Positions 30,075 through 60,185 of a DNA stretch of 64,000 bases are shown here, piece by piece. Source of the DNA: Alphaproteobacteria bacterium (lineage in GTDB: Bacteria > Pseudomonadota > Alphaproteobacteria > CADEGL01); assembly GCA_026400755.1 (NCBI GenBank), contig JAPLOM010000026.1:928-64927 (forward strand), written 5' to 3'. Within the stretch, counting starts at the first letter, position 1. Each line of letters starts with the position of its first letter. The translations under genes were made by a program, and so were the position numbers. The notes under the pieces were generated by a model. The model saw only the letters and a list, made by a program, of their open reading frames with translations, had not been told where the DNA came from and did not search any database.

Positions 30075-30112
30075 CGACCTGCGCGAGCGGAAACGCTCGC
30101 TCCATGATTTAG

Positions 30113-30629: not shown

Positions 30630-32252
30630 ATGAATCGCTACGACTACATCATCGTCGGCGCAGGCACGGCGGGGTGCGTGATCGCGTCGCGTCTGTCGGA
30701 GGACCCGAAGCTGCGCGTGCTGCTGATCGAGGCGGGGCAGCGGGACACGCATTGGTCGATCCGCATCCCCTCGGCGATCGGGCGCAATTATAAGAGCGGC
30801 CCGTTCAACTGGGGGTTCTGGAGCACGCCGCAGAAGCACCTGAACGACCGCGTCATCGTGCAGGCGCGCGGGCGCGTGTTGGGCGGCTCGTCCTCGGTCA
30901 ACGGCATGGTTTACCTGCGCGCCCACGCGCTGGATTTCGAACGCTGGGTCGAGGAAGGCGCCGCGGGCTGGTCGTATGCCGACGTGCTGCCCTATTTCCG
31001 GCACATGGAGCGGTTCACGGGCGGCGCCAGCGAATACCGCGGCGACAGCGGCCCAGTCACGGTGCGCAAGGGCGTGCCCAGCCATCCCGTCAACCAGGCC
31101 TTCCTGCGCGCGGGCGAACAGGCGGGATACGGCTTGACCGACGACGTGAACGGCTTCCGCCGCGACGGGTTCGGAAGCTGGGACATGAACATCGACCAGG
31201 GCGTGCGCGCCAGCTCGGCCTATTCCTATTTGCGCCATGTGCAGCGCGACAATTTGACGGTCCTGACCGAAGCCTTCGCGACACGCATCCTGTTCGACGG
31301 CGACCGCGCCGTGGCGGTGGAATGCCGGCACGGCGGCCAGGTGCATCGCATCGAGGCCGAGCGCGAAATCGTGCTGAGCGCGGGCAGCATCAAGTCGCCG
31401 CATCTGTTGATGCTGTCGGGCATCGGGCCGGCCGACCACCTGCGCGGCCACGGCATCGGCGTGCAGGTGGATGCGCCGGACGTGGGGCAGAATTTGCAGG
31501 ATCACGTCTACCTGTTCCTGCAATACGAATCGAAGCAGGCCATCTGCCTCAACCCCCACGCGCATGGCTGGCGCATGGCGGTGGCGGGCGCGCGCTGGTT
31601 CGCGAACCGCACGGGCCCGGCCGCGAGCAACAATATCGAGGTGGGCGCCTTCTATCGCAGCCGGGCGGATGTGACGCATCCGGACGCGCAGCTTCATTTC
31701 CGGCCGATCCTCTTGGACCCCGACACGTGGGCGCCGTCGCGAAGCCACGGCTATAATTTCAGCCTGGGGCCGAAGCGCCTGACCAGCCGGGGCACGCTGT
31801 CGCTGGCCAGCGCCGATCCCGAAGCCTCTCCGGTCATCGACCCCAACCATCTGGCGACCGAGCAGGATCGCGCGGATTTCCGCCTGCAGTTCCGCCAGAC
31901 GCGCGAGATCGGGATGCAGAAGGCCTTCGATCCCTTCCGCGGGCGCGAGGTGGGGCCGGGCGCCACGGCGCAAACGGACGCCGAGATCGACGCCTATGTG
32001 CGCGCCTACGGCCATAGCTCGTGGCACAACACCAGTTCTTGCCGCATGGGCAGCGACGCGCGCGCGGTGGTGTCGCCGGACCTGAAGGTGCGCGGCGTGC
32101 GCGGGCTTCGCGTGGCCGACACCTCCGTCATGCCCAGCATGATCAGCGCCAACACCAACTGCACCGCCTTCATGCTGGGCGAAAAGGCCGCCGACCATAT
32201 TCGCGGCGGCCCGATGCTGGCGCCGATGAATTTGCCGTTTTGGCGGGGGTGA
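30630..32252 (+). CDS. GMC-family FAD oxidoreductase (choline dehydrogenase-like), copy 1
   Basis: YDYIIVGAGTAGCV FAD motif, GMC signatures, 540 aa. Confidence 0.9.
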   Translation: MNRYDYIIVGAGTAGCVIASRLSEDPKLRVLLIEAGQRDTHWSIRIPSAIGRNYKSGPFNWGFWSTPQKHLNDRVIVQARGRVLGGSSSVNGMVYLRAHALDFERWVEEGAAGWSYADVLPYFRHMERFTGGASEYRGDSGPVTVRKGVPSHPVNQAFLRAGEQAGYGLTDDVNGFRRDGFGSWDMNIDQGVRASSAYSYLRHVQRDNLTVLTEAFATRILFDGDRAVAVECRHGGQVHRIEAEREIVLSAGSIKSPHLLMLSGIGPADHLRGHGIGVQVDAPDVGQNLQDHVYLFLQYESKQAICLNPHAHGWRMAVAGARWFANRTGPAASNNIEVGAFYRSRADVTHPDAQLHFRPILLDPDTWAPSRSHGYNFSLGPKRLTSRGTLSLASADPEASPVIDPNHLATEQDRADFRLQFRQTREIGMQKAFDPFRGREVGPGATAQTDAEIDAYVRAYGHSSWHNTSSCRMGSDARAVVSPDLKVRGVRGLRVADTSVMPSMISANTNCTAFMLGEKAADHIRGGPMLAPMNLPFWRG

Positions 32253-32257
32253 CAACG

Positions 32258-32815
32258 ATGCAGGGCAGCACAGTTATCGAGTGGGTGCTGGTCGGATTGC
32301 TCGGCTACTGGCTGGCCAGGCGGAATTTCAAAAAATACCGCGCGAGCTCAACCCGCACTGATGGGACGTTGAAGGAATTGGTCCGATGGTATTTCTGGCC
32401 CGACATCCGAAACGAAACCGAGGCGCGTAAAGAGTTTGAATCCGTTCGCTCAATTTCGGGCGTCTTCGCGATCATTATGCTGTTGGCCCCAGTCATTATC
32501 CTTGGCTTGAAAGAAGGGTTCTCGCCCAGAGTGCTCGATTCGCATTCGATTTTTTCGCGGTTTGGGGAGTTCTTCTTGGTGTCCTTGGCATTCGCGACGA
32601 TCTGGTATTTCGCGAGACGCGGACGTCAGTGGGTACTTTTCGCGAGCGCTTTGGGTCTCGCCGGTTTCTCAGTGTTTGTCCTCTTGTTTAGTGCCCTCTA
32701 TGAGGGCCACATCGCTCCTTTGGCACCCCTCATTTTCTCTCGATTCTCACTGCGGGGGTTTACAAGTTTCGAGCCTGGATGTGGTTTCGCGATCACCCCG
32801 AAAGCACCCTCGTAA
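32258..32815 (+). CDS. hypothetical membrane protein in low-GC segment
   Basis: 185-aa ORF with 4-5 hydrophobic helices; ~52% GC versus ~68% background; starts 5 nt after GMC stop. Confidence 0.45.
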   Translation: MQGSTVIEWVLVGLLGYWLARRNFKKYRASSTRTDGTLKELVRWYFWPDIRNETEARKEFESVRSISGVFAIIMLLAPVIILGLKEGFSPRVLDSHSIFSRFGEFFLVSLAFATIWYFARRGRQWVLFASALGLAGFSVFVLLFSALYEGHIAPLAPLIFSRFSLRGFTSFEPGCGFAITPKAPS

Positions 32816-47617: not shown

Positions 47618-48526
47618 TCAGGTCGCTTCCTTCCGGAAGAAATTTCGCGCGAAGGCCAGGAAGGCCTGGGCGATGGGGCGCGGCTTGTGCTCGGCCAGAT
47701 GCACGGCGGCGACGCGCACGGGTTGAATCGAATCGCGCAGGCGCACGGCGCCGATGCGTTTGCCGTCATAGCTGGCCGAAACTTTCAGCGGCAAGGTCAG
47801 AATGGAATAGGCCAAGCCGTTGCCGACCAGGCTGCGCACCGTTTCCATCGAGCCGGTGCGGTAGCGCACGTTCGCCGCAAGCCCGAGCGAGGCGAAGACC
47901 GAGCCGAAATAATCCTGGCTGATCGGCAGATCGAGCAGCGCGCAAGGCTCGTCCGCGATCTCGCGCAGATGAATCGCGCCGCGCTTGGCCAGCCTGTGCC
48001 GCGCGGGCAGCAGGATGTAGGGCGGCAGGTCCAGCAACGGCTCGACCGCGAAGGCGCGCGGCAGCATCAGGTCATAGGTCAGCGCCACCTCCAGCTCGCC
48101 GTTGACCATGCCGCGGATGAGATCGGGCTGGTCACCGTCGCGGAAGGTCACATCGGTCTGCGGATACTGCGCCAGGAACCCGCCAAGGACGCCGGCCAAG
48201 TAACGCGGCGCCAGATAGCCGAGGCAGCCGATAGCCAGGCTGCCGCGGGTCTCCTCGGCCACGCCCGAGACGCCGTCGGCGAAATCGCCGACATGGGCCA
48301 GAAGCTTGCGCGCCTCGCGCAGCACCGTGGTGCCCGCGGGCGTCAGCGCCACGCCGCGCGAATGCTGACGCACGAACAACTGGGTCTTGGCTGCCTCCTC
48401 AAGCTGGGCGATGGCCAGCGACACCGAGGGCTGCGACACCTTCAGCGCCCGCGCGGCCGCGGTCACGTTGCCGTGATCGGCGGCGGCGACGAAGTAACGC
48501 AGCACGCGCAGGGATACGTCGATCAA
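47618..48526 (-). CDS. LysR-family transcriptional regulator
   Basis: HTH (LRYFVAAADHGNVTAAARALKVSQPSVSLAIAQLE) plus substrate-binding domain; divergent from 48633. Confidence 0.85.
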   Translation of the reverse strand: MIDVSLRVLRYFVAAADHGNVTAAARALKVSQPSVSLAIAQLEEAAKTQLFVRQHSRGVALTPAGTTVLREARKLLAHVGDFADGVSGVAEETRGSLAIGCLGYLAPRYLAGVLGGFLAQYPQTDVTFRDGDQPDLIRGMVNGELEVALTYDLMLPRAFAVEPLLDLPPYILLPARHRLAKRGAIHLREIADEPCALLDLPISQDYFGSVFASLGLAANVRYRTGSMETVRSLVGNGLAYSILTLPLKVSASYDGKRIGAVRLRDSIQPVRVAAVHLAEHKPRPIAQAFLAFARNFFRKEAT

Positions 48527-48632
48527 GTTTCCTGATCCCGATGATCGAGAAACTATATTTCTCTATCGATCCCGGGTTTGCAACGCTTGAGCCCGTGGCC
48601 CGTTCCGGGCCCGCAAAGGGGGAGGACCTGCC

Positions 48633-49553
48633 GTGATCCGCAACCAGATTCCGTGGCCCGACGGCGCGCGCTGCGCCGTGGCCTTCACCTTCGACATGGA
48701 CGCCGACAGCATCCTGCATCTGGCCCATCACGCCTCGGCCGACACCCGCGTGGCGGCGATGTCGGGCCTGCGTTACGGGCCCGAGGTCGCGGTGCCGCGC
48801 CTGGTCGACATGTACCGGCGGCACGGCATCAAGCAGACCTTCTTCCTGCCGGCCTGGTGCATCGAGCGCTATCCGGCCGCGGTCGAGACCATCCTGAAGG
48901 ACGGCCACGAGATCGCGCACCACAGCTATCTGCACGAACACCCGAACGAGCTAGAGCCCGACGAGGAGCGCTATTGGTTCGAGCGTTCAATGGACGTGAT
49001 CGTCAGGGCCACCGGGCGCAAGCCGCGCGGCTACCGGGCCGCGACCTATAAATTCTCGCGCAACACGCTCGACGTACTGCTGGAGAACGGGATCGAGTAC
49101 GACGCCTCACTGTTCGGCGACGACATCCCTTACATCCTGAGCAACAAGAAGGGCTCGGTGGTCGAGTTGCCCTCGCACTACGGCCTCGACGACTGGCCGC
49201 ATTACCAGGTCAGCCGCGACTTCAACTACATCATGGCCGTGAAGGCGCCGAGCCAGGCCTATCAGGTCTTCGTCGATGAGTTCGATGCCGCGTGGGAATA
49301 CGGCGGCCTGTGGATCAGCGTCTGGCACCCGTTCCTGTCGGGCCGCCTGGCGCGCGCCATGTGGATCGACAAGCTGATCCAGTACATGGCGCGCAAGGGC
49401 AAGGTGTGGTTCGCGCCCTTGGAAGAGATCGCGGCCCACGCCCGCAAGATGGCGGCGGAAGGCCGCTGGCAACCGCGGGTCGACCAGTTGCCTTACTACA
49501 CCGGCCCGATCCCCGAACTCGGCGATGTGAAGCCCGACAAGGTGCGGCCGTGA
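48633..49553 (+). CDS. polysaccharide deacetylase-family protein (PuuE/allantoinase-like)
   Basis: NodB-homology motifs (FTFDMDADS...HHSYLHE). Confidence 0.8.
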   Translation: MIRNQIPWPDGARCAVAFTFDMDADSILHLAHHASADTRVAAMSGLRYGPEVAVPRLVDMYRRHGIKQTFFLPAWCIERYPAAVETILKDGHEIAHHSYLHEHPNELEPDEERYWFERSMDVIVRATGRKPRGYRAATYKFSRNTLDVLLENGIEYDASLFGDDIPYILSNKKGSVVELPSHYGLDDWPHYQVSRDFNYIMAVKAPSQAYQVFVDEFDAAWEYGGLWISVWHPFLSGRLARAMWIDKLIQYMARKGKVWFAPLEEIAAHARKMAAEGRWQPRVDQLPYYTGPIPELGDVKPDKVRP

Positions 49554-51043
49554 ATAAGCTTGTCCCGCCCGCCACGGGCGAATGGCTGGTGGGACGCGCG
49601 GTCGAACGTACCGACCCGTGCCTGAGGACCGGAGCGCAGTATGTCGAAAGCCTGCGTGACGGGCGCTCGGTCATCCTGGGCGGGCGCGACGTGAAGGACG
49701 TGACCGAGGAGCCGCAACTGCGCCGCGGCATCGACACCTTAGCCGGGCTGTTCGACGCGCAGTTCGACCCCGAGACGCGCGAGGAGGTCACCTCGATCGA
49801 ACCCAAGAGCGGCAACCGCATCGCCACCGGCTGGCTGGTGCCGCACAGCAAGGAGGATCTGAAGCGGCATCTGGCCACGATCCGCTTCTCGACCTTGCAC
49901 ACCTTCGGCGTCTTCGGCCGGCCGCCGGATTACGGCCCAGTGAAAGCCATCGGCTTCATGGCCTTCAACCATCTGGTGAAGAAAGAAGAACCTCACGCGA
50001 TCGAGAAGATCGAGCGCTTCGTCGAGATCGGCCAGCGCCACAACCTGGTCAGCGCCGACATCATCATCGACGTCCAGACCAGCCGGAAGCTGCCCATGCC
50101 CGAGCAGGAAGGACGCCTTCAGGTGGTAGAGCAGCGGAAGGACGGCGTGATCGTCTCCGGCATCAAGGCCGGCAACTCGGTCATGGCCCAAGGCAATATC
50201 GGCACCATCTCGATGCCACCGCCCAACCCGACCATGCCCGAGGCGTGCATGCTGTGGTCGGTCGTGCCCTCCCACCTGCCGGGCATCAAGAACATCCTGC
50301 GCGAGCCCGCGACCACGGGCCTGGAGCACCCGGAGGACCATCCGCTCGATTCCGCGGGCGAGGAAGGCGACGGGATGCTCCTGTTCGACCGGGTCTTCAT
50401 CCCGGACGAGTACGTCTTCAGCTTCAAGAACAAGGCGACCTCCGGCGCCTATTACACCCTCGGCCGCTTCGCCCAGTTCAAGATCGCGGCCCGCCTGTCC
50501 TACCGGGCGGAGATTTTCGCGGGCGCCGCCCAGGCCATCGTCGATGCGCTCGGCACCGACCACATCCCCGGCGTGCGGGCGCTGGTGGCCGACGTCTGCG
50601 CCTATGCCGCCACCCTGCGCGCCTTCATGGTGGCCGCCGTGGAACGCGCGCAAGCAACCGAGAGCGGCGTGGTCCTGCCCGACCCGGTCATGGTCACGGC
50701 CTGCCGCCTCCACTCCGTGGTAGGTCTGCCGGGCATCATGCAGCACTTACGCGAGCTGTCCGGCCAGGGCCTCATCAGCCGGGTGCCGCGCGCGACCTGG
50801 GAGCGGCAGGATATTGGTCCCCTGCTCGACCGCTATCTGCCCGGCTACAAGATTTCGGCCCGGCAGAAGAACCGCCTGTTCAATCTGATCTGGGACATGT
50901 CTTCGAGCGGTGCCGCGCTGCGCATCGCCCTGTTCGAGAACCTCAACGCGACCCCGGCGGCCCCCCTGCGCGAGGAGCTGTACCGCACCTACGACCGCAG
51001 CGAGGGGTTGGCCATCATCCGAAAAAAGGCGGGACTGGATTGA
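49550..51043 (+). CDS. HpaB-family flavin-dependent monooxygenase oxygenase component
   Basis: 4-hydroxyphenylacetate 3-hydroxylase family fold, 497 aa; GTG start overlaps upstream stop (GTGA). Confidence 0.8.
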   Translation: MNKLVPPATGEWLVGRAVERTDPCLRTGAQYVESLRDGRSVILGGRDVKDVTEEPQLRRGIDTLAGLFDAQFDPETREEVTSIEPKSGNRIATGWLVPHSKEDLKRHLATIRFSTLHTFGVFGRPPDYGPVKAIGFMAFNHLVKKEEPHAIEKIERFVEIGQRHNLVSADIIIDVQTSRKLPMPEQEGRLQVVEQRKDGVIVSGIKAGNSVMAQGNIGTISMPPPNPTMPEACMLWSVVPSHLPGIKNILREPATTGLEHPEDHPLDSAGEEGDGMLLFDRVFIPDEYVFSFKNKATSGAYYTLGRFAQFKIAARLSYRAEIFAGAAQAIVDALGTDHIPGVRALVADVCAYAATLRAFMVAAVERAQATESGVVLPDPVMVTACRLHSVVGLPGIMQHLRELSGQGLISRVPRATWERQDIGPLLDRYLPGYKISARQKNRLFNLIWDMSSSGAALRIALFENLNATPAAPLREELYRTYDRSEGLAIIRKKAGLD

Positions 51044-51155
51044 CGGCGCGCGTGAAGAGCCGTTCGAATAAGGCTGAAAAATAAGGATTAAAAATATAGT
51101 AGGTAACAATATTATATATCTACTATTTTCGCTGGCAGCGAAATAAAATGGCTAA

Positions 51156-51797
51156 ATGGCCGAGCGAACGATCGAAATTGCAAGGACCGCGCTCGAGGCC
51201 GCCTGGGCGCGGGCGCGGGACAATCCCTCCGCCGAAACCGGGGTGGCCTATGCCGATGCCCATGCCGCCTGGACCGACCTTGCCCGCCGCCGCGTGGGCC
51301 GCCCGGCCAGCAGCGACGGGGCGGCGCTGACCGGGCCGGAGCGGGCCCAGGCCCTGCGCGGACGCCAACAGGATTCGGCCGGCAAATGGACAAGGGTGGC
51401 GCCTGTCATCCAGAGCCTGCGCGGCGCGGTTCGGGCCGGCGATCTGAACGCCGTCTCCGCCGCCGTCCGCGCCTTGGTCAACGAGACTTCCGTGACCCTA
51501 GACCGGATCACCGTGATCCACGCCCACCCCAGCTCCGACCAGACCGTCCTGGAGGGGTGGGACGGCGATCGGCCCGTCCTGGGGTTTGTCGCGCTCGCGA
51601 CGCTGGCCGGCTATTTCGGACGCGCGGACCTCACCCCAGCCCAAGCCAACCTGCTTGTCGGCCAAGACTTGGCGCCCTTCGCGCGGGCGATGGAGGCAAG
51701 GCTGGAGCGAGGGGATTATCGCCCCTATGCCCGGGGCGGCGTCACCGTGCCGTGCATAGACATCCTGCTCAGTGATTTCGACAGAGGACCGCGCTAA
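51156..51797 (+). CDS. hypothetical protein (213 aa), no recognisable domain
   Basis: GC3-rich ORF immediately after an AT-rich hairpin-containing segment; lies between that segment and the Rep-like gene. Confidence 0.45.
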   Translation: MAERTIEIARTALEAAWARARDNPSAETGVAYADAHAAWTDLARRRVGRPASSDGAALTGPERAQALRGRQQDSAGKWTRVAPVIQSLRGAVRAGDLNAVSAAVRALVNETSVTLDRITVIHAHPSSDQTVLEGWDGDRPVLGFVALATLAGYFGRADLTPAQANLLVGQDLAPFARAMEARLERGDYRPYARGGVTVPCIDILLSDFDRGPR

Positions 51798-52441
51798 GTC
51801 CGCAGACTGGTATGAGTTGGATTTGGAAAAGCCCGGAATTTTCTCGGCGTAGATTGAATTTTTCCTTCGTCCTGAAGGCGTCGGCGAACGCTTGGCCCAA
51901 GCGATTTGCTTGTACCCGCGCGCTTCCCGAGAACAATTCCTTGCGGCTCATGCCGAATGCGGAAAAATCGCGCGTATACCGGATCAATTCCCTTGATCAA
52001 GTATTTGGCTAGGCCCTGCGGCCTGGGCACGTCCCGAACATGAACTGCGCTGTTGCAAGTGACCGTAGGCACAACCGCGGCCAGCCATTTCGGAAGAAGC
52101 GCTCGAAACGAAGCGATACGTTCATCCGGAATATGAACAACCCAGTGGACATGAGGGTACTCACCTCGGCTCTCAATGCTCCACACGTAGGCAGGTGGGG
52201 TACGGAGGCCAGTGGCTTTGCGTCGTAGCCACGGGACAAAGTGATTGTCGCGGAGGAGTTCAAACTGCTCACTGACGAGGCCCGATGGGCACGTCGTATG
52301 GCCAAAGTTCAAAGTGACGAATTGATTCAGAGGAAGCCCAATTGCGTCGGCCACGCTGACGGCCCTGACTATATTGGAGGCCGGCTTGCGGTTGATGAAG
52401 CTGCTGCGACGCCTACTAGATCGTGTTTCTGTATCGACCAT
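51794..52441 (-). CDS. rolling-circle replication initiator-like protein (HUH endonuclease motifs)
   Basis: Motif I FVTLNF, motif II HVHWVVH (HUH), motif III AKYLIKG (YxxK) in canonical order and spacing; gene GC ~52% versus ~68% background. Confidence 0.5.
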   Translation of the reverse strand: MVDTETRSSRRRSSFINRKPASNIVRAVSVADAIGLPLNQFVTLNFGHTTCPSGLVSEQFELLRDNHFVPWLRRKATGLRTPPAYVWSIESRGEYPHVHWVVHIPDERIASFRALLPKWLAAVVPTVTCNSAVHVRDVPRPQGLAKYLIKGIDPVYARFFRIRHEPQGIVLGKRAGTSKSLGPSVRRRLQDEGKIQSTPRKFRAFPNPTHTSLRT

Positions 52442-52526
52442 CTATACTCTTAGGGTGTCTGACCCCTCCTCCGCCGCGCTTCCCCCCCCCCGTGATTTTC
52501 TGATCGCCGACGCGGTTGGCCCCGCT

Positions 52527-53378
52527 TCACGCACCCAGCGGTCTTGAGCCCTTGATCGTGACCCGCATCATCTGGCGGTCCTGCACGCCATAGTCGTTAG
52601 CTGCGTAGTGAATCGTGCAGCGATTGTCCCAGAAGGCCACATCGCCCTCGGTCCAGCGCCAGCGGACCTGGAAATTCGCCTGCTCGCAGTGGTCGCACAG
52701 CATGTTGATCAGGTGCCGGCTCTCGATCTCCGATACACCGAGGACGCGCGCCGCGTAGGCGCGGCTGACGAACAACGCGCGCCGGCCGGTCTCCGGATGG
52801 CGGATGACCATCGGATGCACGCAGCCCGGCTTCTCGACCTTCATTTTCTTGAGACGTTCCGGCCCGTCCTTCGTGGCCGGATCCAGAAGGAAGGGCGTGA
52901 AGGTGGGCACGCCGTCGTGCAGCACCTGAAGCCCTTCGATCATCGCCTTCATGCGCTCGGATAGGCTTTCGTAAGCCGCGTACATGGAAACCCAGAGCGT
53001 GTCGCCGCCGATCTGCGGCAGCATCATCGGGTGAAGCAAGGAACCCAGCGGCGGCGTCTCATCGAACGAAACGTCCGAGTGCCAGATTTCGTTTTAGTTT
53101 TTGCCACCCTTGCTCGCGCGCGCAGTGACCAGCATCACCTTCGTGTTGTCGGGGTGCTTATCAAGGCCGCTGTGGGGCGAATCGATCTCGCCGAACTTCT
53201 CCGCCAAGGCAGCGAAGGCGTCCGCGCTCAGCTTCTGCCCGGGGAAGAAGACGACCTGGTGCTCCAGGAACGCCTTGCGGATGGACGTCACCTCGAACGG
53301 GCTGACGTTGTTCAGGTTGATGCCGGAGATTTCAGCGCCCAGATAGCCGGTCAATCGCCGAACCGTCATCGCGTTCAT
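52527..53378 (-). pseudogene. TauD/TfdA-family alpha-ketoglutarate-dependent dioxygenase interrupted by an in-frame TAA
   Basis: Two collinear in-frame ORFs (53378..53097 and 53039..52527) separated by TAA at 53094-53096. Read-through gives a contiguous TauD-like sequence (...SKGGKN*NEIWHSDVSFDETPPLGSLLHP...). Confidence 0.65.
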
Positions 53379-53404
53379 GGCGTCACCTCCATCGTTCTAC
53401 GAGA

Positions 53405-54860
53405 TTAGGCGTCGGGCTTGACCCCGTGCAGCCGGTCGATGTGGGCCAGGTAATCGCGCACTTCCTTGTCCTGGCGCGTCTGGTCCCAGCCCAGGATCGG
53501 CGCCACCTCTTGCGCCGCGCGGCGGGCGACTTCGCGGCCCATGGTCTGCGTCCAGCCCGCACCGACCCGGCGGAACATCAGATCCACGAGCGTCATGGGC
53601 TGCTCGTTCTCCGCCGCCCTGTGCAGGTGGGAGATGCGCGCGTCCGGCCAGTGGTTGAGGAGGGCCGGCGAATCGTCCTTCGGATACGGCTTGGCCGCGT
53701 AGGAGATCTGCTGCGGCGCGCCGGACGGCTTGAACTTCTTCTGCACGGCGGTCGCCAGCTGCACGCCCGCCAAACGATGCGACTGGATGGGCGAGGAGGT
53801 CATGGCATACATGCCGGGCAGGCCGTCGGCCTCCAGATCGTGCAGCGTGTGGCCGCGCTTGCCCATGGGCAGGTCGGGGTCGTAGGTCAGTGGGCGCACG
53901 CCGGCCCAGGAGAACAGCACGTCCTTGCGCGTGAGGCCGAGGCCGGGAAGCAGCGCATTGGTTTCGTGGATCAGGTGCTCCTTCTCCTCCTCCGTCGCGC
54001 TGATGTCGTCGATATCGCCCTCGTACTTCGTGTCCGTGGGGCCCGTGTAGTGCATGCCGCGCCAGGGGATGACGTAGTGCGGCTCGCGGTCGGACGTGTG
54101 GGCGATGACGCCCATGTTTTCGCACTCGGGCGGCAGGCGGAACATGATGTGGGACGTTGGGATCGAAGGCGTCGGCCAGATCGATGCGCCAATCGTCGCC
54201 CTCGCGGACCATTTTGGTCGCGGGCGTGTAGTTGCGCGCGACCGCCCCCATGCGCTCGGCGTCGAGCAGCGTGTCCATGGCGATACGCTCGGGCCACTCG
54301 TAGCGATACTCCCGGTAGCTGAACACGGACGTCAGCTTCTCCGGATCGCGCAGCCATTTGAGCAACGGCATCTGCAGCGCTTCCTTGGCGGGGATGCGCT
54401 TGGGATCGAGCGGCACGTCGCCGGGGCCCAGCGCCGCCAGAAGCTTCATGCCCAAAGTGACCTGCCAGGGCTTGTAGATGCTGTCGGTATAGACCGGGAA
54501 GCAGAAGGAAAAGGCGCGCACCCGCTCGGGCATCGTGGTGCTGATCTGACTGCGCACGTTCATGGCGTCGCGCGCGCGGCCCAGGTTGCGGATCGTGTCC
54601 TTGGGCTTGGTGAAATAGTCGAACATGCTGGGCTTGCGGTAGCCCAGGCCCTCGCCCGGCTCGATGAAGCGCAGGCCGCAATGAAGCAGGCGGCTGGAAC
54701 GGCTGGACGAACCGGCGGCGAAGTCGCCCTTGTCCACCACCAGCACCTTGTAGCCCGCGGCGGCCAGATGATGCGCGCCGCTGGACCCGTTCACGCCCGC
54801 GCCCACGACGATCGCGTCGAACTTGCGCCCGTCGAGTTCCTTCAGAGCCATCCGTTTCAT
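53405..54860 (-). pseudogene. GlpD-like FAD-dependent oxidoreductase, disrupted paralog (internal ~130-bp deletion plus frameshift)
   Basis: N-terminal 270 aa and C-terminal 245 aa are each collinear with the intact paralog at 55928..57499 but lie in different frames. The ~45 residues KAKIVLNMAGTWIDRVNKLAGEGAKRKICGTKGVHFAVK of the paralog are missing at the junction near 54140-54150. Confidence 0.6.
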
Positions 54861-54982
54861 CGATTTTCCCCCAACCCCTGTCTTTCGGCGAGAACAACCT
54901 TCTCGCCATTCTATTTGACGGACCATCTAAACGGCCCACATTCTGGCCGTCCAATAATCTAACAAATGCGAGTCATAACCAA

Positions 54983-55921
54983 ATGGGTATGGCCAGCCTG
55001 CGCCGGCGCCATATGCTGGTTTTCCAGACCGTGATGCGGTCCCGGTCGGTCACCGAGGCCGCGCAGCAATTGGGCATTTCCCAACCCGCCACGTCCCGCG
55101 CGCTGTTCGAGCTGGAGGAGCAGGTCGGCTTTCCCCTCTTCAACCGCTCCAGCGGACGTACCACCCCGACCGTCGAGGCGCAGAACCTTCTGCCGGAGAT
55201 CGACGAGCTGCTTCTCCACCAGGACCTGGTCGAGGGGCGTATCAAGGCCGTCCGCGCGCGCAACGAAGGAACCCTGACCATCGCGGCACCGCCGGGCCTG
55301 GTGACGTCTTTTCTGTCCCGCGCCGTGGCGCGCTAAGCGCAACGAAAGCCGAAAGTGAGCATCCGGCTCGAGTCGCACTCCATTACCCGGATCGCCGAAT
55401 CGGTCATCCGCCACGAGGTGGATTTCGGATTCGTCTATTCGCCCACCGATCTTTCGAAGGTCCGCTCGATTCCCATCTGCCGTTCGGAGATCGTCTGCGT
55501 GTTCCCGCCAGATCACCGGCTTGCGCAGAAACGCGTCGTCACGGCGGATGACTTGGTCGGCGAGCGGATTGTAACGCTCACTGTCAACGCGATGACGGGC
55601 ATGCTGATCCGCGAAGCCCTGCGCCCCGAGCAGATGGACGCCATCATCGAATCCAACCTGTCGCTGACGGCGCTGACCATGGTGTCCGAAGGCGGAGTCG
55701 TAGGGTTGGTGGATTCGGCATCTCTCGAAGGCCCATTCAGCGGGCTGGAGATACGGCGCTTCAAACCCAGCATCGACTTCCGCATCTTCGCGATCGGCTC
55801 GCGCTACCGCCCCCCGTCGCGAACGGCCAATGACTTCTTCACCGACCTGAACAAAGTCTTGAAGGAGCTGGCGCGCGCCGTGCCGTCGGTCCATCTGACG
55901 GGAGCGGCCCTGCGGTTCTAG
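54983..55921 (+). pseudogene. LysR-family regulator interrupted by an in-frame TAA
   Basis: HTH half (54983..55333) and substrate-binding half (55355..55921) are in the same frame, separated by TAA at 55334-55336 (...SRAVAR*AQRKPKVSIRLESH...); divergent from the disrupted oxidoreductase. Confidence 0.6.
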
Positions 55922-55927
55922 AGCGCG

Positions 55928-57499
55928 TTACTGCTTCGCGTCCGAATGGATCAGCCCATCTGGCCCGCGCAGATGCTGGTGCGCGATATAGGCCACGTAA
56001 TCCTTGGCTTCCTTGTCGGCCCGCGCCTCGTCCCAACCCATCTCGGGCGCGATCGCACGCGCGGCTTTCAGCGCCGCTTCGCCCGCCATCGTCTTGGTCC
56101 AATGCGCGCCCACGCGGCGGATCGCATCGACCAGCGTCGCCGGATACTCGGTTGCGGCGACATGCTTCAGGTCCGCAACCTTGGCGTCGGTCCAATGGTC
56201 GAGCAGCGGCGGCGAGTTCTGGTTCTCCGGAAACTTGCGCGCGGAATAGTCGATCTTCTGCGCCGAACCCGACGGCTGGATTTTCCCTTGCACAGCCGCG
56301 CACATCTCTTGGCCCGCCGAACGGTGAGTCATGATCGGCCCCGCCGTCATGGCCAGAACACCGGGCATGCCTTCGGACGCCAAATCGTGCACCAGGCGGT
56401 CGCGCGAGCCCTTCGGATAGCGCGAGTCGTAAGTCAAAGGCCGCACGCCGGCCCATGAAAACAGAATGTCCGAGCGCTTCAGGTTGATCGAGGGGAACAG
56501 GTGGTTGGCCTCGGCCAACAGCCAGTCGATCTCGTTGTCCGTCGCGCGGATGTCGTCGATGTCGCCTTCGAACAACGTCTCGGTCGGGCCGAAGTAGTGC
56601 AGGTCGCGCCAAGGGAAACAGTAGAGATGCTCGCCCTCGCGGTGATGGCCCATGACGCCGCGATACTGGCATTCGGGCGGCAGCTTGACGGCGAAGTGAA
56701 CGCCCTTGGTGCCGCAGATCTTCCGCTTGGCTCCTTCGCCGGCCAGCTTGTTGACGCGGTCGATCCAGGTACCCGCCATGTTGAGCACGATTTTGGCTTT
56801 CACCGTCGCTTCTGCGCCCGGCTGCAGCGAATCGCGCATGGTGACCTGCCAGCCATCGCCGTCGCGGCGCATGCCGGCGACCGGCGTGTAGTTGCGCACG
56901 ACAGCGCCCATGCGCTCGGCGTCCAGCACCGTGTCCATGGCCACGCGCTCGGGCCAATCAAAGTGGTATTCGCGGAACGTGGCCGCGCCCAGCATCTTGT
57001 CCTGGTCGCGCATCCAGGACAGGAGCGGCATCGTCTTGATCTCGCTCGGGCGAGCGATCTTGAAATCGATCGGCACGTCGCCCGGCCCCAGGAGCTCCAG
57101 CGTCTTGAACGCCAGCTTCACCTGCCAGGGCTTGTAGTAGTCGGTGTTGTAGATCGGGAAGGCGAAGTGGAGTTGGCGCAGATGCTCGGACGTCGTGTTG
57201 ATGAACTGGCTGCGCGTCTTCATGGCCTGGCGCGCCATCTTGAGCGAGGCGAACAAGAGATCGGGCTTGGCCATGAACTGCCACATGGACATGCCGCGAT
57301 CGAGATAGCGGATGCCGCAGGAAAGCATGCGGCTGGAGCGGCTGGAGGCGCCGGTGCAGAAATCATTCTTCTCGACCAAAAGAACGGAGTAGCCGGCCGC
57401 GGCCAGATGCTGGGCCGACGAAATGCCGTTGAGACCAGCGCCGACGACAGCCACGTCGAACTGCTTGCCGTCGAGCGCCCCGAGCGATTGGCGTGCCAT
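55928..57499 (-). CDS. GlpD-like FAD-dependent oxidoreductase (intact paralog)
   Basis: DVAVVGAGLNGISSAQHLAAAGYSVLLVEK FAD motif; 523 aa from ATG 57499 with GGAGGG RBS. The ORF track opens far upstream within antisense Arg/Pro-rich junk. Confidence 0.8.
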   Translation of the reverse strand: MARQSLGALDGKQFDVAVVGAGLNGISSAQHLAAAGYSVLLVEKNDFCTGASSRSSRMLSCGIRYLDRGMSMWQFMAKPDLLFASLKMARQAMKTRSQFINTTSEHLRQLHFAFPIYNTDYYKPWQVKLAFKTLELLGPGDVPIDFKIARPSEIKTMPLLSWMRDQDKMLGAATFREYHFDWPERVAMDTVLDAERMGAVVRNYTPVAGMRRDGDGWQVTMRDSLQPGAEATVKAKIVLNMAGTWIDRVNKLAGEGAKRKICGTKGVHFAVKLPPECQYRGVMGHHREGEHLYCFPWRDLHYFGPTETLFEGDIDDIRATDNEIDWLLAEANHLFPSINLKRSDILFSWAGVRPLTYDSRYPKGSRDRLVHDLASEGMPGVLAMTAGPIMTHRSAGQEMCAAVQGKIQPSGSAQKIDYSARKFPENQNSPPLLDHWTDAKVADLKHVAATEYPATLVDAIRRVGAHWTKTMAGEAALKAARAIAPEMGWDEARADKEAKDYVAYIAHQHLRGPDGLIHSDAKQ

Positions 57500-57636
57500 G
57501 AAACCCTCCCCCGTGCTTGGCAAAGTCCGAAGAGCATATCGGCCGCGCATCCGGGATGCCATGCGCGGGCCTGAATAGCGATTGCTCTGCGATAGCCAGG
57601 GACGGCATCCTCCCCGGCCGGAGCGAAGGAGAGGCG

Positions 57637-58761
57637 ATGGACGGGGAGGATTCCACGATCCCACGGGACGTGGACGTGGCCGTGGTCGGCGGCGGGGTGG
57701 TCGGCATGTCGGCCGCGCTGTTCCTGGCCCGGGCGGGGCGCTCGGTCGCCGTCTTCGACCGCACCGAACCGTGGAGCGATGCCTCGGGCTCGAACGCCGG
57801 CACCCTGTCGATCCAGGCCATGCGCGTCGAGGTGCTGGCCATGGCGCGGCTGGGCATCGCGCTGTGGCGCCGGTTCCAGGAAGAAGACGGCATGGATGTC
57901 GGCTTCGCGCGGCTGGGCGGCTTCCTGGTCGCGACCGGCGACACCCATATCGCCCATCTGCGCGATTATGCCGCCCAGCAGGCGCTGTCGGGACTGGAAC
58001 TGGAGTGGCTCGAAGCCAACCGGATGCGCGACCGCGCGCCATGGCTGGGACGCGCGGTGCGCGCCGCCACCTTCTGCGAGGAGGATTCTCACGCCAGCCC
58101 CCTGCTGGCTGGCAACGCCGTGATCGCCGCTGCGCGGCGCGCGGGCGCCCATGTGCTGTCACAGACGCCGGTCGAATCCATCGCGCGCGAGGGCGCGGGC
58201 TATGCGGTGACCACGCGCTTCGGCGTCACGCGCTGCCGCGCCGTGGTGGTGACAGCGGGGCCATGGTCAGGTGAGATCGCGCGCATGCTGGGCGTCGCTT
58301 TACCGCTTTACGTCGACACCAACATGCTGACCATCACCGAGCCGGGACCGAAGGTGTTCGACCGCGTGGTCAGCCACGTGGCCGGCATTCTGACCCTCAA
58401 GCAATACGAGAACGGCACCTGCATGATCGGCGGCGGCTGGCAGGGGCGCGGCGTGTTCACAACCGGCCAGCGCAAGACCGATTACGACCGGCTGCGGCAG
58501 AACTGGGCGACCGCCACGTCCGTGGTGCCGGGCTTGGCGAATTTGCGCGCGGTGCGAAGCTGGGCCGGGTTCCAGGCCGTGACGCCGGACGCCCTGCCCG
58601 TGATCGGCCGCCTGCCCGGCCACGAGCAGGCCTATATCGCGGCGGGCGCGCGCGGCGGCTTCCACATGGGGCCGGCGCAAGCCCTGGCCCTGTCCGAGAT
58701 GATCCAGGGCCGCGCGCCACCTTTGGACCTGACGCGCTTCGATCCTGGCCGCTTCGCATGA
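57637..58761 (+). CDS. FAD-dependent oxidoreductase (DAO / sarcosine oxidase beta-like)
   Basis: DVAVVGGGVVGMSAALFLARAG motif; GGAGAGG RBS before ATG 57637. Confidence 0.8.
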   Translation: MDGEDSTIPRDVDVAVVGGGVVGMSAALFLARAGRSVAVFDRTEPWSDASGSNAGTLSIQAMRVEVLAMARLGIALWRRFQEEDGMDVGFARLGGFLVATGDTHIAHLRDYAAQQALSGLELEWLEANRMRDRAPWLGRAVRAATFCEEDSHASPLLAGNAVIAAARRAGAHVLSQTPVESIAREGAGYAVTTRFGVTRCRAVVVTAGPWSGEIARMLGVALPLYVDTNMLTITEPGPKVFDRVVSHVAGILTLKQYENGTCMIGGGWQGRGVFTTGQRKTDYDRLRQNWATATSVVPGLANLRAVRSWAGFQAVTPDALPVIGRLPGHEQAYIAAGARGGFHMGPAQALALSEMIQGRAPPLDLTRFDPGRFA

Positions 58762-58815
58762 GGCTCGACCGCGCCGCCTGGTTCCGCTTCACTGGCGGCA
58801 TCGACGGGGGACGGA

Positions 58816-59229
58816 ATGAACGATGAAGATCAGATTCTGCAAGCCAACGAGGCGTTCTACCGGGCGTTCTCGGCACGCGACATGACGGCCATGGACGCGG
58901 TGTGGGCCAAGCGCGCGCCCGTGGCCTGCATCCATCCGGGCTGGGGTGCCTTGGTCACGCGCGAATCCGTGATGACCAGCTGGCAGGGCATCCTGTCCAG
59001 CCAGAACGCGCCGAACGTGACCTGCCGGGGGCCGCGCGCCTTCGTCTCGGGCGACGCGGCCTTCGTGATCTGCTTCGAGATGGTCGAGGGCGGCTATCTG
59101 ATCGCGACCAATATCTTCACGCGCGAGGACGGTGCCTGGCGCATGACCCACCACCAGGCCGGCCCCACCAACGACGCGCCGCCGGAAGAAAAACCGGCGC
59201 CCGCCAAAACTTCTAAGACGATCCACTGA
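58816..59229 (+). CDS. SnoaL-like / NTF2-fold protein (DUF4440-like)
   Basis: 137 aa, NTF2-like motif (ANEAFYRAFSARDMTAMDAVWA). Confidence 0.65.
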   Translation: MNDEDQILQANEAFYRAFSARDMTAMDAVWAKRAPVACIHPGWGALVTRESVMTSWQGILSSQNAPNVTCRGPRAFVSGDAAFVICFEMVEGGYLIATNIFTREDGAWRMTHHQAGPTNDAPPEEKPAPAKTSKTIH

Positions 59230-59240
59230 CGGAGAGCACG

Positions 59241-60185
59241 ATGATCGAGCGGCGGAAGATCAAGCGCATCGCGCTGGTCGGCACGGGCACCATCGGCGGG
59301 TCGTTCTGCGCGCATTTCCTCGCGCATGGCTATCAGGTGACGGCGACCGACCCCGCGCCGGACGGCGAGGCCAAACTGCGCGCCTTCGTTGCGCGCGTCT
59401 GGCCGCAACTGCGCGAGATCGGTGCGACCAAACTGGACGCGCCACCGCCCTTCGATTTCGCGCGCGATGTGGGGAGTTGCGTGAAAGATGCAGACTTCGT
59501 GCAGGAGAACGCGCCCGAGATCGAGGCGCTGAAGATCAAGGTGCTAGCCGAGATCGACGCCGCGTTCCCCAAGGAGCGGGTGATCGCCTCCAGCACCTCG
59601 GCATTGGTGATGACGCGGCTGGCCGTCGAATGCGCGCATCCTGAACGGTGCATCCTAGCGCACCCATTCAACCCTCCGCATCTGGTGCCGCTGATGGAAC
59701 TGGCCGGCGGCGAGCGCACCGACCCCGCGGCGATCGACTTGGCCCATGATTTCTATTTGGAAGCCGGGCTGAAGCCGGTGCGGATGAAGCGCGAGATCTA
59801 CGGCCACATCGCCAACCGCCTGCAATACGTGATCTGGAACGAGGCCGTGCAGATGGTGCTGCAGGGCTATTGCACCGCCGCCGACGTGGACGCCGCCATC
59901 ACGGAAGGGCCAGGACGGCGCTGGGCCTTCATCGGGCCGTTCCTGTCCTACATGCTGGCGGGCGGCGAAGGCGGGCTGAAGCGCACCTTCGAAATCTTCG
60001 GCCCGCGCGACACGATGGCGGTCGACCGCGCCTCGCGCATCCGCCTGACGCCAGAGCAGCAGAAAATCCTGATCGATCAGGTCGAGGAAATGCTGAATGG
60101 CCGCACGCCCGCCGACATGGCCCGTGCGCGCGACGCGCGGTTGGTCGAGCTGGCCAAAATCAAGAACGCGTTCGAGAAAGGCTGA
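59241..60185 (+). CDS. 3-hydroxyacyl-CoA dehydrogenase-family NAD-dependent dehydrogenase (L-carnitine dehydrogenase-like)
   Basis: N-terminal GTGTIGGSF Rossmann motif, HPFNPPHLVPLMELAGG; ~315 aa, the length typical of carnitine dehydrogenases without the thioesterase extension. Confidence 0.75.
   Translation: MIERRKIKRIALVGTGTIGGSFCAHFLAHGYQVTATDPAPDGEAKLRAFVARVWPQLREIGATKLDAPPPFDFARDVGSCVKDADFVQENAPEIEALKIKVLAEIDAAFPKERVIASSTSALVMTRLAVECAHPERCILAHPFNPPHLVPLMELAGGERTDPAAIDLAHDFYLEAGLKPVRMKREIYGHIANRLQYVIWNEAVQMVLQGYCTAADVDAAITEGPGRRWAFIGPFLSYMLAGGEGGLKRTFEIFGPRDTMAVDRASRIRLTPEQQKILIDQVEEMLNGRTPADMARARDARLVELAKIKNAFEKG

What the first reader, a model, noticed from the sequence alone, without database searches (positions are those of the whole stretch)
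51050..52526. Low-GC islet encoding a rolling-circle (HUH) Rep-like protein with an AT-rich hairpin and a C10 tract
A ~1.4 kb segment with sharply lower GC sits between a catabolic operon and a TauD pseudogene. On the minus strand it carries a 215-aa ORF with the three RCR initiator motifs in canonical order (FVTLNF; HVHWVVH = HUH; AKYLIKG = YxxK). Upstream lies a very AT-rich stretch (51060-51150) with inverted repeats ATAGTAG/CTACTAT and CGCTGGCAGCG, a plausible double-strand origin or promoter. A 213-aa ORF of unknown function lies in between. A homopolymeric C10 tract (52478-52487) sits just upstream of the rep start and could vary by slippage. The whole looks like an integrated remnant of a small RCR plasmid or ssDNA phage-like element. 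Its neighbours carry premature stops.
Basis: partly seen in the sequence, partly recalled or inferred. Interest (0 to 1): 0.7.

Follow-up and report, generated by a model that had tools for sequence, protein, structure and literature searches.

The report
Stray plasmid-type HUH nickase gene
One foreign gene for a small Rep-like (HUH) DNA-nicking enzyme, from an unnamed family that normally sits on alphaproteobacterial plasmids behind an SOS-type operator, has been inserted into the tiny gap between two chromosomal genes. It is not an integrated plasmid or phage.

Summary
The 215-aa minus-strand ORF (51794-52441) is real and is a Rep-class HUH endonuclease. Motifs I, HUH and YxxK are conserved across a family of about 1,700 protein clusters. 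The AF2 model best matches AAV Rep, Microvirus Rep and RepB nuclease domains. Some relatives give sub-threshold hits to Pfam REP_ORF2-G2P.

The "1.4-kb islet" is really a gene-sized insert of about 0.71 kb (51798 to about 52506-52516). Its GC is 56% against 66% for the window, and its GC3 is 56% against 82-89% in host genes. It lies in the 12-22-nt spacer between the convergent stops of a native 213-aa ORF and tauD. Three related lineages have the empty site.

The AT-rich hairpin region and the 213-aa ORF are native and conserved in relatives that lack the gene, so no origin was found. Relatives sit on small plasmids that carry their own Rep proteins. In 11 of 19 loci the gene has an exact GTTC-N7-GTTC box (the alphaproteobacterial LexA consensus) about 80-90 nt upstream. 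The window copy lacks the box and any recognisable promoter.

Best reading: a stranded, horizontally acquired accessory nickase gene. It is not a plasmid or phage remnant and not a demonstrable transposon. The C run is at 52482-52491 and its length differs between metagenome contigs.

The parts
51798..52516 (.). Inserted foreign segment of about 709-719 bp. The left junction is directly after the TAA of the 213-aa ORF. The right junction is ambiguous, between 52506 and 52516.
   Evidence: The window matches L007 up to 51764 and again from 52526, so 761 bp replace 56 bp. Empty sites in L007 and L032/L034 show a 12-22-nt spacer between the convergent stops, and L035 shows an 18-nt spacer. GC is 0.562 against 0.656 for the window (z = -3.35).
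51794..52441 (-). Intact 215-aa gene for a Rep-class, single-tyrosine HUH endonuclease of an unnamed family. Its stop codon overlaps the stop of the 213-aa ORF by 3 nt.
52304..52321 (-). Motif I (FVTLNF, residues 41-46), on beta-strand 40-45.
   Evidence: V42 64/89, T43 66/89, N45 68/89.
52133..52174 (-). Predicted metal-binding region: E90 plus H97-V-H99 (HUH) plus H103, on the beta-hairpin 85-102.
   Evidence: E90 86/89, H97 56/89, H99 73/89, H103 70/89. Strand positions. The E-x6-H-x-H spacing matches what I recall for AAV Rep (my own knowledge, not tested here).
51989..52009 (-). Motif III (AKYLIKG, residues 145-151). Y147 is the predicted catalytic tyrosine, on helix 141-148.
   Evidence: Y147 89/89, K150 88/89, G151 79/89. 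The second tyrosine, Y156, is present in only 34/89, so this is a one-tyrosine enzyme.
52438..52449 (-). Conserved DNA motif abutting the start codon (GAGTATAG-ATGG here; TAGTATA(G/T)ATGG in relatives). Its function is unknown.
   Evidence: Found once per locus, exactly at the start codon, in 12 of 13 loci with 43-67% protein identity. No conserved hairpin surrounds it.
52482..52491 (-). G10 tract on the gene's strand (C10 on the + strand), 41-50 nt upstream of the ATG.
   Evidence: It corresponds to GGGAGGGGA or GGGAGGGAA in plasmid relatives. Other metagenome contigs encoding the identical protein read G13 (L001) or GGGGGGAGGGG (L002, L006).
52492..52516 (-). Truncated 5' flank and junction. 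The window allele lacks the GTTC-N7-GTTC box and any sigma-70-like promoter.
   Evidence: No box, even allowing one mismatch, within 220 nt upstream. No promoter-like site upstream of the gene. Contigs L001 and L006 carry about 21 more nt here, including GTTTCCTTTTTGTTC.
51060..51150 (+). Not part of the insert. This is the native AT-rich intergenic promoter or operator region of the 213-aa ORF, with two hairpins.
   Evidence: Conserved in L007, L032 and L035, which lack the HUH gene. Contains sigma-70-like sites. Folding z = -2.2.
51156..51797 (+). Not part of the insert. This is a native 213-aa ORF of unknown function downstream of the HpaB-like gene.
   Evidence: GC 0.706 and GC3 0.82. Homologs of 77-79% identity occupy the same position in L007, L032-34 and L035. 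Only a weak Pfam CATASP match (E = 2e-4, below cut-off).
52527..53378 (-). Flanking tauD pseudogene, co-directional with and upstream of the HUH gene. It is the only evident source of transcription into the gene.
   Evidence: Single TAC->TAA change at codon 95 (53094-53096), otherwise in frame with the intact 283-aa TauD of L007 and L032.

Best explanation
Shown: a gene-sized piece of foreign DNA of about 0.71 kb carries a single intact gene for a small (215 aa) Rep-class HUH endonuclease. It sits in the 12-22-nt spacer between the convergent stop codons of a native 213-aa ORF and tauD, and related genomes have the empty site. The protein belongs to an unnamed family found mostly as a solitary gene on small alphaproteobacterial plasmids that carry their own Rep, together with partition, resolvase and restriction-modification genes.

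Inferred: the protein is a metal-dependent single-strand DNA nickase. E90, H97 and H99 (possibly H103) would hold the metal. Y147 would attack the phosphodiester bond and stay linked to the 5' end, as in Rep proteins.

Inferred from a conserved GTTC-N7-GTTC box about 76-93 nt upstream in most close relatives: on its plasmids the gene is repressed by LexA and switched on by DNA damage. It would then act as an accessory, damage-inducible nicking or initiator module rather than as the plasmid's housekeeping initiator.

The window copy arrived by illegitimate (non-site-specific) recombination. It lost the box and its promoter, has no cognate origin nearby, and can only be transcribed by read-through from the decaying DAO-tauD operon. 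It is therefore most likely a stranded passenger gene, still intact.
For: Insertion:
- Synteny with L007 breaks only at 51765-52525.
- Empty sites occur in three relatives.
- GC and GC3 are foreign.

HUH identity:
- Motifs are conserved in canonical order: Y147 89/89, K150 88/89, E90 86/89, H99 73/89.
- The AF2 model has pLDDT 88.
- The 28 best Foldseek PDB hits are all AAV Rep origin-binding/nuclease domains, 27 of them at probability 0.87-0.99.
- 88 BFVD hits reach E<=1e-3, and the few named among the top 50 are mostly Microvirus or ORF2/G2P replication initiators.
- 18 of 89 family members hit Pfam REP_ORF2-G2P below threshold.

Accessory status: the gene is a neighbour of RepA_C, replication initiator protein A, Rep3, RPA or another replication initiation protein on plasmids.

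SOS link:
- An exact box is present in 11 of 19 loci (about 8 lineages), against a background of about 0.1 per kb.
- One-mismatch boxes lie at the same position in L006, pRPA and BPP5P1.
- The gene is divergent from an S24-peptidase/Y-family-polymerase operon in Agrobacterium and divergent from an S24 peptidase gene in Neorhizobium.
- GTTCN7GTTC is the published Caulobacter LexA consensus (PMC12700426).

No own promoter, box or terminal structure in the window copy.
Against: - No biochemical data exist for any family member.
- The GTTC direct repeat could instead be an iteron bound by the HUH protein itself. A near-box also occurs on a Bordetella (betaproteobacterial) plasmid, where, from my own knowledge, LexA recognises a different sequence.
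- Two independent chromosomal copies (the window and L016) are both gene-sized, with the 3' boundary at the stop codon. A random fragment capture does not predict this.
- Other contigs encoding the identical protein (L001, L006) show a longer 5' flank, so the exact junction in this population is not settled.
- The gene is intact and identical in six contigs from different samples, so it may be functional rather than merely stranded.
Confidence: 0.6

Rival explanations
1. One reading: the segment is the remnant of an integrated small rolling-circle plasmid or ssDNA phage. The ORF is its replication initiator and the AT-rich hairpin is its double-strand origin.
For: The protein has the HUH Rep fold and motifs. 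The DNA is foreign by composition. Relatives are plasmid-borne.
Against: Only one gene is inserted. The AT-rich hairpins and the 213-aa ORF are conserved in relatives without the gene. No conserved hairpin or nick-site structure lies next to the gene in 12 loci. Every plasmid examined has another Rep. In pRm1132f, a known RCR plasmid (PMC10194956), the Rep_1-like 358-aa ORF is the likelier Rep. No phage or viral sequence relatives were found.
Confidence: 0.08
2. The gene is a minimal self-mobile element. The HUH protein would be a one-tyrosine rolling-circle or 'peel-and-paste' transposase (IS200/IS605-like or ISCR-like) that moves little more than its own gene, with an end at or in the 3' end of the ORF and a loosely defined 5' end.
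For: There are two independent gene-sized, low-GC chromosomal insertions between convergent genes, each with 0-3 nt after the stop: the window and L016. Neither shows a target duplication (for the window). The 3' end of the gene is also the synteny breakpoint between L025, L027 and L021. A 142-nt direct repeat flanks the gene in L036. LexA control of HUH ISCR transposases is documented (PMC13393415).
Against: The gene is single-copy wherever it could be counted (one place in 16 of 18 plasmids; one context in metagenomes). There are no terminal hairpins, inverted repeats or conserved end sequences. There is no Y1_Tnp or Y2_Tnp match. In the L016 lineage the same spacer holds unrelated genes of similar size (DUF559, a PIN toxin pair, SIR2-like, protease-like), so gene-sized insertions there do not need an HUH protein.
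Confidence: 0.12
3. The protein is a conflict or defence nuclease. It would be an orphan Rep-like nickase kept because it attacks competing rolling-circle plasmids or ssDNA phages, or acts as a damage-induced suicide or interference factor.
For: In the L016 lineage it occupies a hot spot otherwise filled by defence-type or selfish genes. On plasmids it is usually next to restriction-modification genes. It appears to be SOS-controlled. Its closest structural relatives include Microvirus initiators.
Against: There is no match to any PADLOC model. It has no constant partner gene, and there is no experimental evidence. Restriction-modification genes are common cargo on small plasmids anyway.
Confidence: 0.12
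4. The ORF is a chance reading frame or a dead pseudogene with coincidental motifs.
For: There are no Pfam, NCBIfam or PDB sequence hits, and no promoter was found.
Against: There are 25 full-length homologs at E of 1e-35 to 1e-142 and 1,677 cluster representatives. All family-wide conserved residues are present in the window copy. The fold prediction is confident.
Confidence: 0.02

Closest known systems
Rep-class HUH endonuclease domains (AAV Rep N-terminal domain, Microviridae gpA/VP4, Pfam PF23343 REP_ORF2-G2P)
   Same: Same motif order: motif I, then E...HUH on a beta-hairpin, then YxxK on a helix C-terminal to HUH. These are the best structural matches. Some relatives give sub-threshold PF23343 hits.
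   Different: No helicase or other domain is attached, and the protein is only about 200 aa. It carries a family-specific C-terminal motif, QG-x3-G(K/R)R-x-G-x-S-x-(L/I)G. It does not reach any Pfam threshold and is not found in phage or viral collections.
RepB of pMV158 (initiator of small RCR plasmids, about 210 aa)
   Different: RepB is its plasmid's only initiator and has a defined origin with a hairpin nick site and direct repeats (my own knowledge). Here each plasmid has another Rep, and no conserved hairpin lies near the gene. There is no Rep_2/Rep_OBD Pfam match.
IS200/IS605 TnpA and REP-associated tyrosine transposases (RAYT)
   Different: No Y1_Tnp match. No subterminal hairpins or flanking REP-like repeats. 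The gene is single-copy.
ISCR (IS91-like) rolling-circle transposases under LexA control
   Same: An HUH-protein gene on mobile DNA with an SOS operator in its promoter (PMC13393415).
   Different: From my own knowledge, ISCR proteins are much larger and have oriIS/terIS ends. No such ends or Y2_Tnp domain are present here.

Membership tests
HUH endonuclease superfamily, Rep class | Motif order I - HUH - Y, with the catalytic Tyr C-terminal to HUH | tested here: met
   FVTLNF at 41-46, HVH at 97-99, Y147xxK150. The order is conserved in 89 family members.
HUH endonuclease superfamily, Rep class | Two His separated by a hydrophobic residue on a central beta-strand, plus a third acidic or polar metal ligand | tested here: met
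   The window protein has H97-V98-H99 on strand 95-102 and E90 on strand 85-92. In the family, E90 is present in 86/89, H99 in 73/89 and H97 in only 56/89 (A or N in many close relatives), so some members have a degenerate first His.
HUH endonuclease superfamily, Rep class | HUH nuclease fold | tested here: met
HUH endonuclease superfamily, Rep class | Site-specific ssDNA nicking with a covalent 5'-phosphotyrosine intermediate | not testable with these tools
   Requires biochemistry.
Pfam PF23343 REP_ORF2-G2P | Score at or above the gathering threshold (27.8 bits) | tested here: not met
   The window protein gives no hit at E<=1. 18 of 89 relatives hit below threshold. The best E-value was 3.4e-5 and the best score I saw was 22.9 bits.
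Integrated rolling-circle plasmid replicon | Double-strand origin (nick site in a hairpin, Rep-binding repeats) next to rep | tested here: not met
   The AT-rich hairpins are native and conserved without the gene. RNAalifold found no conserved structure around the conserved start-codon motif in 12 loci. The insert ends do not fold better than shuffles.
Integrated rolling-circle plasmid replicon | The protein is the initiator of the plasmids that carry it | tested here: not met
   Other Rep genes are present on pRPA, pCP157_12, L013, L036 and L037, and there is a Rep_1-like ORF on pRm1132f. This rests on gene content only, with no genetics.
Integrated rolling-circle plasmid replicon | Further plasmid or phage genes or att-type repeats at the borders | tested here: not met
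   Synteny with L007 is continuous on both sides. No flanking direct repeats were found.
IS200/IS605 (Y1 transposase elements) | Y1_Tnp domain, subterminal hairpins at both ends, multiple copies | tested here: not met
   No Pfam hit. No end hairpins or inverted repeats. One place per record in 16 of 18 plasmids.
IS91/ISCR rolling-circle transposons | Y2_Tnp-type transposase with conserved oriIS/terIS ends | tested here: not met
   No Pfam hit. No conserved sequence at the 3' ends of 17 loci.
Alphaproteobacterial LexA (SOS) regulon | GTTC-N7-GTTC operator in the promoter region | tested here: not met
   The window copy has none, even allowing one mismatch, within 220 nt. Among relatives, an exact box lies mostly at -76 to -93 in 11 of 19 loci, and a one-mismatch box at the same place in 3 more. 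LexA binding itself cannot be tested here.
BapE (Caulobacter SOS-induced apoptosis endonuclease) | Homology to CCNA_00663 | tested here: inconclusive
   The BapE sequence could not be obtained. Its gene is 336 bp, or 111 aa (supplement of PMC12907096). That is too short to hold this approximately 200-aa domain, so the lead was dropped.
Known anti-phage defence systems (PADLOC) | Match to a PADLOC model | tested here: not met
   No hit at E<=1 for the window, L016 or pRPA proteins.

The most novel reading that the evidence does not exclude
The family is a previously unrecognised class of damage-inducible, gene-sized HUH modules of alphaproteobacterial plasmids. It would be either the smallest rolling-circle-type transposon, moving just its own gene with no terminal repeats, or an SOS-triggered 'escape' initiator that nicks its plasmid to start rolling-circle copying or transfer when the host is damaged. 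On this reading the window copy is a footprint of such a jump into a chromosome.
Probability: 0.15. Interest if true: 0.75.

Novelty: new member of a known kind. Interest (0 to 1): 0.42.

Why it matters
For this genome the result is modest. A single foreign nuclease gene has landed between two genes of a decaying catabolic cluster, and it does not mark an integrated plasmid or phage.

The family is of more interest. About 1,700 protein clusters of a roughly 200-aa Rep-like nickase have no Pfam or NCBIfam model and no studied member. The gene rides as a solitary gene on plasmids that already have a replication protein. In most close relatives it sits behind a sequence identical to the alphaproteobacterial LexA operator.

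If that operator is real, these plasmids carry a DNA-damage-inducible nicking enzyme of unknown purpose. This is cheap to test, for example with pRPA of Rhodopseudomonas palustris CGA009 or the Agrobacterium and Neorhizobium plasmids. It could bear on how small 'non-mobilizable' plasmids spread or amplify under stress.

Tried and rejected
1. BapE lead. The published bapE promoter has a similar LexA box and an ATG context resembling that of pRPA. However, the bapE gene is only 336 bp, and a 20-mer from its promoter was absent from the metagenome collection. The lead was dropped.

2. Origin hairpin around the conserved TAGTATA(G/T)ATGG motif. RNAalifold found no pairs in 12 loci. The resemblance to the CRESS-virus nonanucleotide TAGTATTAC, and of the complement to the pMV158 nick site TACTACGAC, rests only on memory.

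3. AT-rich hairpin as origin. Rejected, because it is conserved in relatives without the gene.

4. att-like direct repeats or terminal inverted repeats. Only short matches at chance level were found. The insert ends fold no better than shuffles.

5. A conserved 3'-end sequence (oriIS-like). None was found in 17 loci.

6. pRm1132f as proof of an RCR function. That plasmid has a family member but also a Rep_1-like ORF. The original paper (PMC95193) is not held. Nick-site pattern searches were uninformative.

7. The following all gave nothing for the window protein: Pfam, NCBIfam, PHROGs, PADLOC, PDB sequence search, the phage collection and viral contigs. A PDB profile search gave only chance hits.

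8. The afdb50 fold library was unavailable.

9. A genome-collection scan with the full alignment failed for lack of conserved stretches. A narrower alignment found only 3 loci.
Full report
**What is at the coordinates.** The minus-strand ORF 51794-52441 (215 aa) and the plus-strand ORF 51156-51797 (213 aa) both exist. Their stop codons overlap. The three motifs are present at residues 41-46 (FVTLNF), 97-103 (HVHWVVH) and 145-151 (AKYLIKG). The inverted repeats ATAGTAG/CTACTAT and the palindrome CGCTGGCAGCG lie at 51097-51140. The C run is ten bases long but lies at 52482-52491, four bases from the stated position. It is the only homopolymer of nine or more bases in the window.

The composition does not support a 1.4-kb islet:
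- The 213-aa ORF has 70.6% GC and GC3 of 0.82, like host genes (GC3 0.82-0.89).
- Only 51798-52516 is low, at 56.2% GC (z = -3.35 among 700-bp windows). GC3 of the gene is 0.556.
- The 29.7% GC stretch at 51060-51150 is a separate short intergenic region.

**The insert is one gene.** A related genome (L007, GCA_902826885.1) is collinear with the window at about 88-90% identity from 47630 to 60000. The only break is at 51765-52525, where 761 bp in the window replace 56 bp in L007. Two further lineages (L032/L033/L034, and L035) also go from the stop of the 213-aa homolog to the next convergent gene within 12-18 nt.

Aligning the empty sites places the left junction directly after the TAA at 51795-51797. 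The right junction lies between 52506 and 52516. The foreign DNA is therefore about 709-719 bp: the 648-bp ORF plus 65-75 nt of 5' flank and nothing 3' of the stop.

The AT-rich region with its two hairpins is conserved in all three relatives that lack the gene. It holds the only sigma-70-like sites in the area and folds better than shuffles (z = -2.2). It is the native promoter or operator region of the 213-aa ORF. I found no flanking direct repeats, terminal inverted repeats or end hairpins.

**What the protein is.** The window protein has no hit in Pfam, NCBIfam or PADLOC, nothing better than E = 0.13 in PHROGs, and no hit in PDB sequences. It is nevertheless clearly a conserved protein:
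- 25 full-length homologs in the 5.8-billion-sequence set.
- 1,677 cluster representatives at E<=1e-3 with a profile, 140 of them at E<=1e-30, nearly all about 190-225 aa.

In an 89-member alignment, Y147 is invariant. K150 is present in 88/89, E90 in 86/89, G168 in 88/89, R174 in 87/89, H99 in 73/89, H103 in 70/89 and H97 in 56/89. Y156 is not conserved, so this is a one-tyrosine enzyme.

The AF2 model is confident (pLDDT 88, pTM 0.82). It puts E90 and H97/H99 on adjacent strands of a beta-hairpin and Y147 on the following helix. Structural searches agree:
- The 28 best Foldseek PDB hits are all AAV Rep nuclease domains, 27 of them at probability 0.87-0.99.
- In BFVD, 88 hits reach E<=1e-3. 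The few named ones among the top 50 are mostly Microvirus replication initiators or ORF2/G2P-domain proteins.

Scanned one by one, 18 of the 89 relatives hit Pfam REP_ORF2-G2P below threshold. The best E-value was 3.4e-5, and the best score I saw was 22.9 bits against a cut-off of 27.8. These alignments cover motif I through motif III.

I conclude that the protein is a Rep-class, one-tyrosine HUH endonuclease of a family that has no model and, as far as I could find, no studied member. Catalysis itself is inferred.

**Where the family lives.** Close relatives sit on small plasmids or plasmid-like contigs with ParA, RHH antitoxin, MobC/relaxase or MobA, resolvase and restriction-modification genes (L008-L015, L036, L037, L118). 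In PLSDB, 18 plasmids carry a relative, all annotated 'hypothetical protein'. The hosts are mostly Alphaproteobacteria, plus one Bordetella.

Each plasmid that could be read has a different, recognisable replication protein:
- RepA_C on L013.
- Replication initiator protein A on pRPA.
- Another replication initiation protein on pCP157_12.
- Rep3 on L036.
- RPA on L037.

pRm1132f is cited as a rolling-circle plasmid (PMC10194956). It has a 34%-identical family member, but also a 358-aa ORF with a weak Rep_1 match. From memory, the original paper calls it a group III (pC194-type) plasmid, which would fit the 358-aa ORF. I could not read that paper.

The family protein is therefore probably an accessory protein, not the replicon's initiator. 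No relatives were found in IMG/VR or in the phage collection.

**A likely SOS operator.** An exact GTTC-N7-GTTC (or its complement) lies upstream of the start codon in 11 of 19 loci. This represents about eight independent lineages, and the box is mostly 76-93 nt from the start. The loci are L008, L013, L018, L020, L021, L025, L026, L027, L036, L037 and L118. The background is about 0.1 per kb across the loci, and most of that background is these sites themselves.

One-mismatch versions lie at the same position in L006, pRPA and the Bordetella plasmid. GTTCN7GTTC is the published LexA box of Caulobacter (PMC12700426), and the spacers are T-rich like known boxes. In Agrobacterium pAt2 the gene is divergent from an S24-peptidase/Y-family-polymerase operon, and in Neorhizobium from an S24 peptidase gene. 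LexA control of an HUH-protein gene on mobile DNA has a precedent in ISCR elements (PMC13393415).

The alternative reading is that the 11-nt-spaced repeats are iterons for the HUH protein itself. I cannot exclude this.

The window copy has no such box and no promoter-like site. Its homology with plasmid promoters stops just beyond the G tract. That tract corresponds to GGGAGGGGA in relatives.

**Variation at the 5' end.** Six metagenome contigs from other samples encode the identical protein in the same downstream context, and all end within about 110 nt upstream of the gene. Those that cross the tract read G13 (L001) or GGGGGGAGGGG (L002, L006), against G10 in the window. L001 and L006 also carry about 21 more nt (TTTCCTTTTTGTTCTAGTATT), including a one-mismatch box.

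Homopolymer sequencing error and contig-end artefacts cannot be separated from real slippage, and the tract is in the leader, not in the coding sequence.

**How it got there and what it does now.** A second chromosomal copy (L016/L017, 43% identity) is also a gene-sized, low-GC insert between convergent housekeeping genes, with 3 nt after the stop. This parallel suggested a self-mobile unit.

In that lineage, however, the same spacer is empty (42-52 nt) in three relatives. In others it holds unrelated genes of similar size: a DUF559 nuclease, a PIN toxin pair, and SIR2-like and trypsin-like proteins. Gene-sized insertions there therefore do not need an HUH protein. The gene is also single-copy wherever it could be counted and has no conserved ends.

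I therefore favour capture by illegitimate recombination, with trimming, over self-transposition. In the window the gene lies downstream of and co-directional with tauD. tauD carries one nonsense codon, and the DAO-family gene beyond it lacks 113 bp relative to L007. Read-through from this decaying operon is the only visible source of transcription.

**Verdict.** It is of modest interest for this genome. The family as a whole is more interesting because of the apparent SOS control and its accessory status on plasmids.

Noticed in passing
window 53094-53096 and 54154/54155: The two genes on the tauD side of the insert are damaged. tauD has a single TAC->TAA nonsense codon at codon 95 but is otherwise in frame. 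The DAO-family oxidoreductase lacks 113 bp that are present in L007 (12306-12418), which shifts the frame. I could not separate real decay from MAG assembly error.
   Followed up: partly
window 52482-52491; L001 36-48; L002 1-11; L006 58-68: The homopolymer upstream of the gene differs between assemblies that encode the identical protein: G10, G13 and GGGGGGAGGGG. All six other contigs end within about 110 nt upstream of the gene. This suggests assembly trouble or strain heterogeneity at this point.
   Followed up: partly
L001 1-38 and L006 1-56, against window 52492-52530: Other contigs carry about 21 extra nt (TTTCCTTTTTGTTCTAGTATT, containing a one-mismatch GTTC-N7-GTTC) between the G tract and the flank. 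Their outermost bases do not match the window's tauD end. There may be a second allele, or a coexisting plasmid copy.
   Followed up: partly
window 52438-52449; L008 5802-5813, L013 5993-6004, L018, L019, L020, L021, L025, L026, L027, L036, L037, L118: A DNA motif, TAGTATA(G/T)ATGG, abuts the start codon in nearly all relatives down to 44% protein identity. It is better conserved than the adjacent coding sequence, and no Shine-Dalgarno sequence or conserved hairpin is evident. Its function is unknown; it could be a promoter element, a translation signal or the protein's own site.
   Followed up: partly
L016 7897-8663 and the same spacer in L038-L050: In another alphaproteobacterial lineage, the spacer between an enoyl-CoA hydratase gene and an M24 peptidase gene is a hot spot. 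It is empty in three contigs. In others it holds the HUH gene, a DUF559 nuclease, a PIN toxin-antitoxin pair, a SIR2-like protein, a trypsin-like protein or an unknown 241-aa protein.
   Followed up: partly
L036 4720-4861 and 5670-5811: A 142-nt direct repeat (92% identical) flanks the HUH gene on a Rep3 plasmid contig. The repeat covers the last 9 nt of the gene and the 3' end of the neighbouring resolvase gene. This could be a duplication or a recombination scar.
   Followed up: no
L008, L013, L036, L037, L118, L022 (pRPA), L024: On small plasmids the HUH gene is nearly always within one or two genes of a serine resolvase and next to a restriction-modification or methyltransferase module. 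13 of the 18 PLSDB plasmids carrying it are typed 'non-mobilizable'.
   Followed up: partly
window 51156-51797: The native 213-aa ORF has only seven homologs in the large protein set. In every relative whose locus was read (L007, L032-L034) it lies directly after an HpaB-like monooxygenase gene. It gives a weak, sub-threshold match to Pfam CATASP (CATRA-associated small protein).
   Followed up: partly
window 52506-52519 and 52338-52351: The 14 nt at the right junction (GCCGACGCGGTTGG) are a 12/14 inverted copy of a sequence inside the gene. This could be templated filler at an illegitimate junction, or chance.
   Followed up: no
window about 29800-30500 and about 32000-32500: Two more low-GC patches (55-58%) flank a GMC oxidoreductase gene. 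One contains a 133-aa ORF with no Pfam match and a T8 run at 30145-30152.
   Followed up: no
L025 4124-4615, L026 4106-4582, L027 3797-4615: Public annotations of family members use inconsistent start codons (products of 158, 164 and 272 aa). The shorter calls cut off conserved N-terminal residues, and the longest extends well upstream of the conserved start. This may be one reason the family has escaped classification.
   Followed up: no
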